A stretch of 64,000 nucleotides of DNA from Escherichia phage PinkRuby, in the sequence record PP925839.1; one strand, 5' to 3'. This document shows, piece after piece, positions 21,844-23,403 of the stretch. The position numbers and the translations under genes were made by a program. The notes under the pieces were generated by a model. The model did no database searches. It had not been told where the DNA came from and saw only the letters and a list, made by a program, of their open reading frames with translations. Numbering within the stretch: position 1 is the stretch's first letter; each line of letters opens with the position of its first letter.

Positions 21844-22109
21844 TGTTCATCCTTTAGAGTTTGATTTACAGCTCTATTATAAATCAATTCATCATTAAGC
21901 TCAGGCAAAGACTTATGATATGTAGTTCTAACTTTATTTCCTTGCATCCAGTGCTTGACGTAAATGAAACCTTGCTCTACGCATTTTTTAAAAATTCGTT
22001 CGTCTTTTTGAGCTCGGAATTCTGGATTGCATCTAAAAAATTGATTTACGTGACCGTAATCACGTGTAGTATTACCTTCATTTTCATAAATAGTGTGAAC
22101 GACAAACAT
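21840..22109 (-). CDS. Hypothetical protein (30.1 position)
   Basis: 89-aa ORF, synteny. Confidence 0.55.
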   Translation of the reverse strand: MFVVHTIYENEGNTTRDYGHVNQFFRCNPEFRAQKDERIFKKCVEQGFIYVKHWMQGNKVRTTYHKSLPELNDELIYNRAVNQTLKDEQ

Positions 22110-22948
22110 TAGAATGCTCCTTGGAAAATATTATCACCACAAGTAGGTCTATTATACAAATACTCTATTCCACCAGGTTTAATATAGTTCCATGTCTGAA
22201 ACGGATGTGTCTGATATGGATGATATAGATGATTATAAGGATTAAATCCAGGAGTTCTCCAGGTAGTGTTCCAACGAAAAGAATCATTTTTAATCATCTT
22301 TTCAATTATATCTTTTATAGCTTTTTCACTATCAAAACTTTCTTTATTTTCCTTTGGTGAAAAAAGCTTATTTTCTATATCATTCCATGTATAAACTCGC
22401 TGAGCAGTTTTTGGAATATTGTCACGCTCTCCTCGCGCCATCCAATAAACAGGAACATTTAATATTTCACTCGCATGATCGCAGTGGTGAGCGAGATCGT
22501 CAATATAACAAATTACGTTATATTTCTCTTTTGCCTTTTTAAACAACTCTTCTTTTGAAGAATCATGACCACACATCATTACTTCTGAGAATGCACCAGG
22601 AAAAAGAGCATTCAAATTAAATTGACGATTCAACAGAGCGTCAATAGAATCACCCAATGCTGTAACAGCTACAAAATTATAATCTTCTTTTAATTTATTA
22701 ATTACACACAGGGCATCTTTATACGGAGACAAATAACGAATAAAATCTGAACGATTGTATTTTTCAATTAGCTTGACACCAAGTTCTTCATCACAATCAA
22801 AGAGTTTACCTGGAGAAATAAATTTCTCATCTTGGATCATTTTTAAAATATGTTCTAACGGAAGATTATATTTCTGAGCAAAATAAGGAAGGCCTGATTG
22901 CCAGCTTAAACATACTCCATCAATATCAGTTAAAATAGTAGGCTTCAT
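22109..22948 (-). CDS. HAD-superfamily-like hydrolase (30.2 position)
   Basis: 279 aa; N-terminal hhhhDIDGV motif typical of HAD phosphatases (motif I), later YIDD; inference from motifs only. Confidence 0.5.
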   Translation of the reverse strand: MKPTILTDIDGVCLSWQSGLPYFAQKYNLPLEHILKMIQDEKFISPGKLFDCDEELGVKLIEKYNRSDFIRYLSPYKDALCVINKLKEDYNFVAVTALGDSIDALLNRQFNLNALFPGAFSEVMMCGHDSSKEELFKKAKEKYNVICYIDDLAHHCDHASEILNVPVYWMARGERDNIPKTAQRVYTWNDIENKLFSPKENKESFDSEKAIKDIIEKMIKNDSFRWNTTWRTPGFNPYNHLYHPYQTHPFQTWNYIKPGGIEYLYNRPTCGDNIFQGAF

Positions 22949-23403
22949 AGAGAGTCTCTTAATAGGTTTAACACATCAATAAATTCAGCTTCGGTTAATA
23001 TTGTATCATCTTTTGTTAGACCACTAGCCATGCTGTGCTTCAAAACTTTTCCTTTCGAGGCTTGTAATGCATCGCGAAAGCCCCTGTTTTGGAACGCTGC
23101 TTCAAAATATGCATTTGTGTATAGCTCTTTCCACGCCGGGGAGTATCTTGAAAACGGAACTCCGAGCCAGAAGAGGGTCCCACGGTCCTGAGCTCTAGCA
23201 TAAGCTCGTCCAGCTTGTTGGGCAGCAAGCCCGGATAACCCAAATATACGACGTTGCTGTTCAACATTTTTCACCTTACACCCTTGGAGGAATCCTTCGA
23301 GACCTCCAAATTGGATACCATCCATAACAAAAGGCCATTGGGCGAAATTACTTAATGCGCATGATGGCCATCTAAAATTGCTTCTTATCTCTAGCTCAGA
23401 CAT
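22945..23403 (-). CDS. NADAR/YbiA-like domain protein (30.3 position)
   Basis: 152 aa from ATG 23403; ...SNFAQWPFVMDGIQF.GLEGFLQGCKV... resembles N-terminal signature of YbiA/DUF1768 (NADAR) proteins; from memory, not a search. Confidence 0.5.
   Translation of the reverse strand: MSELEIRSNFRWPSCALSNFAQWPFVMDGIQFGGLEGFLQGCKVKNVEQQRRIFGLSGLAAQQAGRAYARAQDRGTLFWLGVPFSRYSPAWKELYTNAYFEAAFQNRGFRDALQASKGKVLKHSMASGLTKDDTILTEAEFIDVLNLLRDSL

What the first reader, a model, noticed from the sequence alone, without database searches (positions are those of the whole stretch)
22109..23403. HAD-like hydrolase and NADAR/YbiA-like protein pair downstream of ligase, near the Alt genes
ORF 22945-23403 carries an N-terminal signature (SNFAQWPFVMDGIQF...GFLQGCKV) resembling YbiA/NADAR proteins, a family linked to ADP-ribose processing, though I do not see the family's downstream D..WG.G motif. 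The neighbouring ORF 22109-22948 begins with the DIDGV motif of HAD phosphatases. A possible ADP-ribose-processing enzyme in a phage that also encodes two ADP-ribosyltransferases is a coherent functional theme, whether for reversing host ADP-ribosylation-based defence or for processing products of the phage's own enzymes.
Basis: partly seen in the sequence, partly recalled or inferred. Interest (0 to 1): 0.45.

Follow-up and report, generated by a model that had tools for sequence, protein, structure and literature searches.

The report
Known anti-DarT NADAR plus unrelated phosphatase
The smaller gene is this T4-like phage's copy of AdfN, an already characterised enzyme that strips defensive ADP-ribose marks off phage DNA, and its neighbour is an uncharacterised nucleotidase-like phosphatase that travels with the DNA ligase gene and is not AdfN's partner.

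Summary

ORF 22109-22948 is gene 30.2. It is a capped HAD phosphatase with all four catalytic motifs invariant and belongs to an NT5C-like (5'(3')-deoxyribonucleotidase-like) clade. Its substrate is unknown.

The implied functional pair is not supported:
- In the published T4 transposon screen under DarTG1, 30.3 is lost (log2FC -7.25) while 30.2 (-0.12) and alt (-0.01) are unaffected.
- Across 78 loci, 30.2 stays next to DNA ligase (64 of 78) far more often than next to 30.3 (21 of 78).
- Seven genomes carry the two genes 54-69 kb apart.

Verdict: correct observation, already known, low interest.

The parts
22945..23403 (-). Gene 30.3 = adfN: 152-aa stand-alone NADAR-core ADP-ribosylglycohydrolase. 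Catalytic codons: E36 at 23298-23296, K43 at 23277-23275, His123 at 23037-23035. C-terminal helix (aa 138-151) is intact.
22349..22948 (-). Gene 30.2, N-terminal ~200 aa: C1-capped HAD phosphatase domain of an NT5C-like clade. Motif I D8/D10 (codons 22927-22925 and 22921-22919), motif II T96, motif III K132, motif IV D150-D151.
22109..22348 (-). Gene 30.2, C-terminal ~80 aa tail plus stop codon: aromatic/proline-rich, predicted disordered, lineage-specific. Contains a short conserved peptide G-I-E-Y-L-x-N-x-P-T (aa 260-269, nt 22142-22171).
   Evidence: pLDDT below 50 for 226-235, 239-261 and 270-279. Tail absent or different in most homologues, motif shared by several 45-55% identical ones. 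Most family members are 190-220 aa.
23000..23025 (-). Middle-mode promoter PM30.2, inside the 3' part of 30.3. It gives 30.2, 30.1 and gene 30 their own transcription start.
   Evidence: Annotated in T4 record X53848 at 553-578. That stretch is 100% identical in the window. Assigned by homology only, not tested here.
21840..22109 (-). Gene 30.1 (DUF3045), between 30.2 and the ligase gene. Overlaps both neighbours by 1 and 4 nt.
   Evidence: Pfam PF11243 at 5.6e-63. One database protein fuses a 30.2-type HAD core to DUF3045.
20380..21843 (-). Gene 30, ATP-dependent DNA ligase: the gene that 30.2 actually stays next to across T4-like phages.
   Evidence: Pfam PF01068 at 2.4e-32. Within 6 kb of a 30.2 relative in 72 of 78 loci and essentially adjacent in 64 of 78.
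23396..23602 (-). Gene 30.4 (68 aa, unknown function), immediately upstream of adfN. Its stop codon overlaps the adfN start.
   Evidence: phrog_2042. Partly depleted under DarTG1 in the T4 transposon screen (log2FC -1.79, adj. p 0.014). Found upstream of 30.3 only in close relatives.

Best explanation
ORF 22945-23403 is this phage's orthologue of T4 gene 30.3, now called adfN. It is a minimal, stand-alone NADAR-fold glycohydrolase. When the host DarT1 toxin ADP-ribosylates guanines in phage DNA to block replication, AdfN cleaves the ADP-ribose off the base, which restores replication. In effect it is an orphan copy of the DarG1 antitoxin. The mechanism was shown for the T4 protein and is inferred here from 97% identity, full length and intact catalytic residues (E36, K43, clade-specific His123).

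ORF 22109-22948 is gene 30.2, a separate enzyme. It is a Mg-dependent-type HAD phosphatase with a helical cap, from an NT5C-like (5'(3')-deoxyribonucleotidase-like) clade. It most likely dephosphorylates a small phosphomonoester such as a (deoxy)nucleoside monophosphate. Its disordered C-terminal tail may serve to dock on another protein.

30.2 is expressed with 30.1 and DNA ligase from its own annotated middle promoter, and it is not required for AdfN's anti-DarTG1 function. The adjacency of 30.2 and 30.3 is synteny within T4's closer relatives, not a functional module.
For: AdfN identity:
- PF08010 full-length hit at 4e-69.
- 97% identity to T4 gp30.3 with no gaps.
- Same gene order 30.4-30.3-30.2-30.1-30 as T4.

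NADAR membership:
- Profile of 44 homologues hits E. coli YbiA 2b3w at E=0.0025.
- 16 of 44 homologues hit Pfam NADAR, best 1.5e-7.
- Model pLDDT 93.3.
- E36 and H123 are invariant and K43 is at least 90% conserved.
- His in the last strand is the published hallmark of gp30.3-type NADARs.

Function, from the literature on T4 (not measured on this allele):
- Chimera mapping, deletion and complementation, E36A/K43A mutants and in vitro de-ADP-ribosylation (PMC11825919).
- In vitro guanine-ADPr hydrolysis (PMC11125620; PMC12945103).
- Transposon screen: 30.3 log2FC -7.25 under DarTG1.

30.2:
- HAD motifs I-IV invariant.
- NT5C links.

Independence of the two genes:
- 30.2 log2FC -0.12 (adj. p 1.0, 71 sites) under DarTG1.
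- 30.2 lies within 6 kb of only about 25 of 80 loci holding a 30.3 relative.
- Ligase is adjacent to 30.2 in 64 of 78 loci, against 21 of 78 for 30.3.
- Seven complete genomes carry the two genes 54-69 kb apart (contig ranges).
- No conserved upstream or downstream partner exists for divergent 30.3 relatives.
- PM30.2 promoter is annotated in T4 and identical here.
Against: - No activity was measured for this allele. It differs from T4 at four positions (67, 104, 107, 125), none catalytic.
- The window protein itself does not reach Pfam NADAR or any PDB sequence on its own. Superfamily membership rests on family-level profiles and on a predicted structure.
- For 30.2 the substrate is a guess. 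The window protein has no Pfam hit, the NT5C link is only at family level, and HAD substrate specificity cannot be read from the fold.
- The transposon data are for T4 on one host and one DarTG1 system. They would miss a redundant or condition-specific contribution of 30.2.
- Conserved 30.2-ligase adjacency could be inherited gene order rather than functional coupling.
Confidence: 0.9

Rival explanations
1. 30.2 and 30.3 form a two-enzyme ADP-ribose-processing module. AdfN releases ADP-ribose and the HAD phosphatase processes the released product or a phosphorylated derivative, so both are needed for counter-defence.
For: The genes overlap by ATGA and are co-oriented. They are adjacent in all close T4 relatives examined. 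AdfN-T4 is reported to need some unidentified T-even factor for full activity.
Against: Transposon insertions at 71 sites in T4 30.2 give log2FC -0.12 (adj. p 1.0) under DarTG1, against -7.25 for 30.3. About 55 of 80 loci with a 30.3 relative have no 30.2 within 6 kb. Seven genomes carry both genes 54-69 kb apart. 30.2 has its own annotated promoter. NADARs from other phages work without any phage factor.
Confidence: 0.04
2. The NADAR protein reverses or tidies up ADP-ribosylation made by the phage's own Alt/Mod transferases. It would be functionally tied to the two nearby alt genes.
For: Two full-length Alt-like ART genes lie 2.8-7 kb downstream. A comparative-genomics survey noted that NADARs are expressed with ARTs as early genes in several T4-like phages.
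Against: The activities reported for T4 NADAR are on guanine-ADP-ribose in DNA and RNA. From general knowledge, Alt instead modifies host proteins. alt insertions have no phenotype under DarTG1 (log2FC -0.01). Most divergent 30.3 relatives have no alt within 6 kb.
Confidence: 0.03
3. gp30.2 is a polynucleotide 3'-phosphatase (end-healing enzyme) that prepares nicks for the adjacent DNA ligase, analogous to the HAD phosphatase domain of T4 Pnk/PNKP.
For: Tight 30.2-(30.1)-ligase linkage in 64 of 78 loci, kept even where 30.3 has moved. Shared annotated middle promoter. Weak PHROG hit to polynucleotide kinase (E=0.0022). 1 of 71 relatives hits HAD_PNKP.
Against: The model has a ~60-residue helical C1 cap inserted after motif I. 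From general knowledge of HAD enzymes, such caps are typical of small-molecule phosphatases, whereas PNKP-type phosphatases are capless. Family-level hits favour NT5C (33 of 71) over HAD_PNKP (1 of 71). Gene order in T4-like phages is broadly inherited, so adjacency alone is weak evidence.
Confidence: 0.1
4. Besides DNA repair, the phage NADAR mainly degrades soluble ADP-ribose-derived immune signals, as proposed from comparative genomics before the experimental work.
For: Proposed by Iyer et al. 2022 on the basis of distribution and contexts.
Against: The DarTG1 phenotype and the in vitro DNA de-ADP-ribosylation explain the gene's selective value. No soluble substrate has been shown for this clade. 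This does not exclude an additional activity.
Confidence: 0.08

Closest known systems
T4 AdfN (gp30.3), anti-DarT factor NADAR (Johannesman et al., Nat Commun 2025, PMC11825919)
   Same: Orthologue: 148 of 152 residues identical, same length, same position between 30.4 and 30.2. Same catalytic E36/K43 and clade His123, and an intact C-terminal helix.
   Different: Four substitutions (A67 for S, F104 for I, R107 for K, M125 for I), none at known catalytic positions. Activity of this allele is not measured.
DarG1 antitoxin NADARs of DarTG1 systems (e.g. Geobacter lovleyi NADAR, PDB 8bat)
   Different: The phage protein is the bare catalytic core without the extra N-terminal elements. It has His instead of Asp at the last-strand catalytic position. 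It is not next to a DarT toxin, so it is an orphan, and it cannot replace DarG1 in uninfected cells.
E. coli YbiA and Phytophthora NADAR (PDB 2b3w, 8bau)
   Different: The gp30.3 clade lacks it and uses His123 in L-x-H-S. The phage family has its own Pfam model, PF08010.
NT5C-family 5'(3')-deoxyribonucleotidases (cdN/mdN; PDB 2jao, 6g2n, 3bwv) - for gp30.2
   Different: The window protein itself does not reach the Pfam NT5C threshold. It carries an extra ~80-residue disordered tail. Substrate is untested.
T4 AdfA (gp61.2) and AdfM (Tk.4) - other anti-DarTG factors
   Same: Same biological purpose, countering DarTG defence.
   Different: AdfA blocks DarT by binding, and AdfM is a macrodomain acting against DarTG2. 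Neither is a NADAR. From T4 map positions neither is expected in this window, which I did not check.

Membership tests
NADAR superfamily | Alpha+beta NADAR fold (helical core flanked by small beta hairpins) | tested here: met
NADAR superfamily | Direct match of the protein to the Pfam NADAR/DUF1768 model (PF08719) | tested here: not met
   The window protein hits only PF08010 Phage_30_3 and no PDB sequence on its own.
NADAR superfamily | Family-level sequence link to NADAR/YbiA | tested here: met
   Profile of 44 homologues hits YbiA 2b3w at E=0.0025. 16 of 44 homologues hit PF08719, best 1.5e-7.
NADAR superfamily | Conserved catalytic Glu and Lys in the N-terminal E-x-x-x-Q-x-x-K motif (E36 and K43 in AdfN-T4) | tested here: met
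   E36 invariant and K43 at least 90% conserved in the family, both present in the window protein. The codons were read directly.
gp30.3-type phage NADAR clade / AdfN | Histidine in the last strand in place of the YbiA Glu or DarG1 Asp | tested here: met
   H123 is invariant in 44 sequences and lies in strand 120-123 of the model.
gp30.3-type phage NADAR clade / AdfN | Full-length C-terminal helix (missing in the less active RB69 allele) | tested here: met
   152 aa, same end as T4. Helix 138-151 in the model. The requirement is described.
gp30.3-type phage NADAR clade / AdfN | Removes guanine-linked ADP-ribose from DNA and confers resistance to DarTG1 | not testable with these tools
   Shown for the 97%-identical T4 protein. 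Inferred for this allele.
gp30.3-type phage NADAR clade / AdfN | Orphan: no adjacent DarT toxin gene | tested here: met
   The neighbours are 30.4 (phrog_2042) and the HAD gene 30.2, as in T4.
HAD superfamily phosphatase (gp30.2) | Four catalytic motifs: DxD(x)(T/V), S/T, K/R, DD | tested here: met
   D8, D10, K132, D150 and D151 invariant and T96 at least 90% conserved in 44 sequences. D8, D10 and K132 are still invariant in 71 distant relatives.
HAD superfamily phosphatase (gp30.2) | Rossmannoid HAD fold with cap | tested here: met
NT5C 5'(3')-deoxyribonucleotidase family (gp30.2) | Match to Pfam PF06941 or to solved deoxyribonucleotidases | tested here: inconclusive
   The window protein has no Pfam hit. 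At family level, 9 of 44 close and 33 of 71 distant relatives hit NT5C, and the profile hits 2jao at E=0.016.
NT5C 5'(3')-deoxyribonucleotidase family (gp30.2) | Hydrolysis of (deoxy)nucleoside monophosphates | not testable with these tools
   No biochemical data were found: zero papers mention gp30.2.

The most novel reading that the evidence does not exclude
gp30.2 is not a generic housekeeping phosphatase. It would be a T4-like-phage-specific NT5C-type enzyme working with DNA ligase and gp30.1. They share an annotated middle promoter, adjacency is kept in 64 of 78 loci even where adfN has moved, and one HAD-DUF3045 fusion exists. It could be recruited through its conserved C-terminal G-I-E-Y-L-x-N-x-P-T peptide, for example to heal 3'-phosphate ends or to control a nucleotide that interferes with ligation or with a host defence. 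A second unexcluded lead: gp30.4, which is partly depleted under DarTG1, could be the missing T-even-specific helper of AdfN.
Probability: 0.12. Interest if true: 0.45.

Novelty: already known. Interest (0 to 1): 0.15.

Why it matters
For the NADAR gene, little is new. It confirms that this phage carries an intact anti-DarTG1 factor, so it should plate on DarTG1 hosts. It also shows that a reader working from sequence alone recovered a published function. On the practical side, most of the roughly 1,500 deposited phage genomes still label this gene "hypothetical protein", and a few mislabel it, so annotation could be updated. The residual open question is gp30.2. It is a conserved, dispensable, catalytically intact NT5C-like phosphatase present in about 1,440 phage genomes, with no literature at all. 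The analysis here redirects the hypothesis about it away from ADP-ribose and towards the ligase/nucleotide side.

Tried and rejected
- Single-sequence searches of both proteins against PDB sequences found nothing useful. Profiles were needed.
- NCBIfam has no model for 30.1-30.4.
- The sigma-70 promoter and terminator scan of 20000-26500 was at background level, 22 found against 21.2 expected. The only transcription signal I rely on is the T4-annotated PM30.2.
- I suspected widespread C-terminal truncation of 30.3, because tblastn covered only residues 1-144 in many phages. This was rejected as an end-trimming artefact: T4 X53848 and PhAPEC2 both encode the full 152 aa.
- The context of a displaced 30.3 relative (L056) held only small hypothetical genes.
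- Fusion partners of long 30.2 relatives had no recognisable domains, except one DUF3045 fusion.
- No conserved 30.4-like or other partner flanks divergent 30.3 relatives.
- One literature query was swamped by a general term, and two returned nothing.
- The internal ORF 30.3' was considered as a real overlapping gene and judged unconstrained.

Full report
**What is there.** The window is a T4-like (Tevenvirinae) phage segment. The 2 kb around the finding is 97-98% identical to many Escherichia and Shigella phages and matches 696 phage records. The gene order is that of T4: alt, alt.1, 30 (ligase), 30.1, 30.2, 30.3, 30.4 ... 31, cd. The genes are tightly packed. The 30.4 stop overlaps the 30.3 start, 30.3/30.2 share ATGA, 30.2/30.1 overlap by 1 nt, and 30.1/30 overlap by 4 nt.

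**Gene 30.3 is a NADAR.** The 152-aa protein is a full-length match to Pfam PF08010 "Bacteriophage protein GP30.3" (4e-69). It has no direct hit to Pfam NADAR or to any PDB sequence. It is 148/152 identical to T4 gp30.3, without gaps.

I tested superfamily membership independently:
- A profile of 44 diverse homologues hits E. coli YbiA (2b3w) at E=0.0025 over the N-terminal motif.
- 16 of those 44 homologues individually hit Pfam NADAR, best 1.5e-7.

In the family alignment E36 and H123 are invariant, and K43 is at least 90% conserved. The literature defines gp30.3-type phage NADARs by a histidine in the last strand, where YbiA has Glu and DarG1 has Asp. H123 sits in strand 120-123 of my model.

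**It is already characterised.** Johannesman et al. (Nat Commun 2025, PMC11825919) mapped DarTG1 resistance of T-even phages to gene 30.3 and renamed it adfN. They reported the following:
- It is sufficient to rescue RB69 on DarTG1 hosts.
- E36A and K43A mutants are impaired.
- The RB69 allele lacks the last 15 residues, and an equivalent truncation reduces activity.
- Purified protein removes ADP-ribose from DarT1-modified DNA.

Independent biochemistry shows that T4 NADAR hydrolyses guanine-ADPr. In the 2026 summary table it is not listed among the enzymes that remove cytidine-ADPr. It cannot act as an antitoxin in uninfected cells. A T4 transposon screen found 30.3 insertions lost under DarTG1. 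The window allele is full length, keeps helix 138-151, and differs from T4 only at positions 67, 104, 107 and 125. I therefore transfer the function with high confidence. That step is inference: no activity was measured for this allele.

**Gene 30.2 is a capped HAD phosphatase of an NT5C-like clade.** It is 97% identical to T4 gp30.2, with no Pfam or NCBIfam hit of its own.
- Catalytic motifs: in 44 homologues D8, D10, K132, D150 and D151 are invariant and T96 nearly so. These are the four HAD motifs. D8, D10, R108 and K132 remain invariant in 71 much more distant relatives.
- Subfamily: the family profile's best PDB hit is deoxyribonucleotidase 2jao (E=0.016). It aligns DvDGvlvkW-qSGL with nMDGVLADF-ESGL, so the aromatic residue at Asp+8 and the SGL are shared. 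9 of 44 close and 33 of 71 distant relatives hit Pfam NT5C, more than any other family.
- Size: an exhaustive search finds 1,496 clusters at 50% identity, mostly 190-220 aa. The ~80-residue aromatic/proline-rich tail is therefore a lineage-specific addition. It contains a short peptide, G-I-E-Y-L-x-N-x-P-T, shared by several homologues of 45-55% identity.
- Literature: no paper in the library mentions gp30.2.

My committed reading is a small-molecule phosphomonoesterase, most likely a (deoxy)nucleotidase. The fold and catalytic competence are well supported. The substrate is inference, at roughly even odds.

**Are they a pair? No.**
- In the HIDEN-SEQ supplementary tables, the sheet preceding "Data S7" gives these values under DarTG1: 30.3 log2FC -7.25 (adj. 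p 0), 30.2 -0.12 (adj. p 1.0, 71 TA sites), 30.1 -0.01, alt -0.01. I take that sheet to be Data S6, control versus DarTG1. This is inferred from the README order and from the 30.3 signal, because I did not see the header. 30.2 is also neutral under DarTG2 and non-essential on K-12, with 72 of 72 sites hit.
- Of 80 viral loci holding a 30.3 relative, only about 25 have a 30.2 relative within 6 kb. These are the close T4 relatives plus a handful of others.
- Of 78 loci holding a 30.2 relative, DNA ligase is within 6 kb in 72 and essentially adjacent in 64. A 30.3 relative is nearby in 37 and adjacent in 21.
- Seven complete genomes of 160-175 kb appear in both sets with the two genes 54-69 kb apart (contig ranges).
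- Divergent 30.3 relatives have no conserved upstream or downstream neighbour at all, in line with a stand-alone enzyme.
- The old T4 record annotates a middle promoter, PM30.2, inside the 3' end of 30.3. That stretch is identical in the window at 23025..23000. So 30.2, 30.1 and ligase have their own transcription start.

**The Alt theme.** The two Alt-like genes are real and carry the R...STS...ExE motifs. Nothing ties them to AdfN. alt is neutral under DarTG1, and AdfN's reported substrates are ADP-ribosylated guanines in nucleic acid.

**Verdict.** The NADAR function is already published, so novelty is "already known" and interest is low. The remaining open item is the substrate and role of gp30.2, which the data here point towards the ligase/nucleotide side rather than towards ADP-ribose.

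Noticed in passing
window 23396-23602 (-), gene 30.4: In the published T4 transposon screen, the small gene immediately upstream of adfN is partly but significantly depleted under DarTG1 (log2FC -1.79, adj. p 0.014). This may be a polar effect on adfN, or 30.4 may be the unidentified T-even factor that AdfN-T4 is said to need. A 30.4-like gene precedes 30.3 only in close relatives (12 loci), not in divergent ones.
   Followed up: partly
window 23040-23267 (-), inside gene 30.3, +1 frame: The window keeps T4's annotated internal out-of-frame ORF 30.3' (75 aa). 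It is 85% identical to T4's, against 97% for 30.3. It is shortened to 53 aa in 3 of 14 close relatives and absent in divergent alleles. It looks unconstrained and is probably not a real gene.
   Followed up: yes
window 15988-18045 (-) and 18049-20145 (-): There are two full-length Alt paralogues, where T4 has one Alt plus the remnants alt.-1/alt.-2. The copy next to alt.1 is mosaic relative to T4 Alt: the first ~240 and last ~100 residues are nearly identical, but the middle, including the catalytic region, is much more divergent (71% overall). The second copy is 41% identical.
   Followed up: partly
window 22142-22171 (-), gp30.2 residues 260-269: A short peptide, G-I-E-Y-L-x-N-x-P-T, in the otherwise disordered and variable C-terminal tail is shared by homologues of 45-55% identity. 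It could be a docking motif, with partner unknown.
   Followed up: no
P0111 (metagenomic protein, 302 aa); corresponds to window 21840-22948: One database protein fuses a 30.2-type HAD core to a DUF3045 (30.1) domain. This is either a real fusion hinting at a 30.2-30.1 functional link, or a frameshift on a 1.4-kb contig.
   Followed up: partly
phage records H36 (PQ657794.1), H38 (PV067732.1), protein P0173: Annotation lag and errors. Most 30.3 and 30.2 homologues in about 1,500 phage genomes are labelled "hypothetical protein". One 30.3 relative is labelled "anti-CBASS protein acb1" and another "DprA-like". A 216-aa 30.2 relative is labelled "DNA ligase".
   Followed up: no
database proteins P0004-P0007, P0013-P0018, P0045, P0090 (30.3 relatives): Many close 30.3 relatives in the protein database are truncated (89-126 aa) or joined to neighbouring-gene domains such as PF11097, PF06919 and PF06019. 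This suggests that adfN is often disrupted or rearranged in nature, as in RB69. Some may be contig-end or assembly artefacts.
   Followed up: no
window 25015-25036 (-): Strong terminator-like hairpin (9-bp stem, 5 G-C pairs, followed by a T run) on the coding strand, downstream of the rIII-like ORF and upstream of the 30.8-30 gene block.
   Followed up: no
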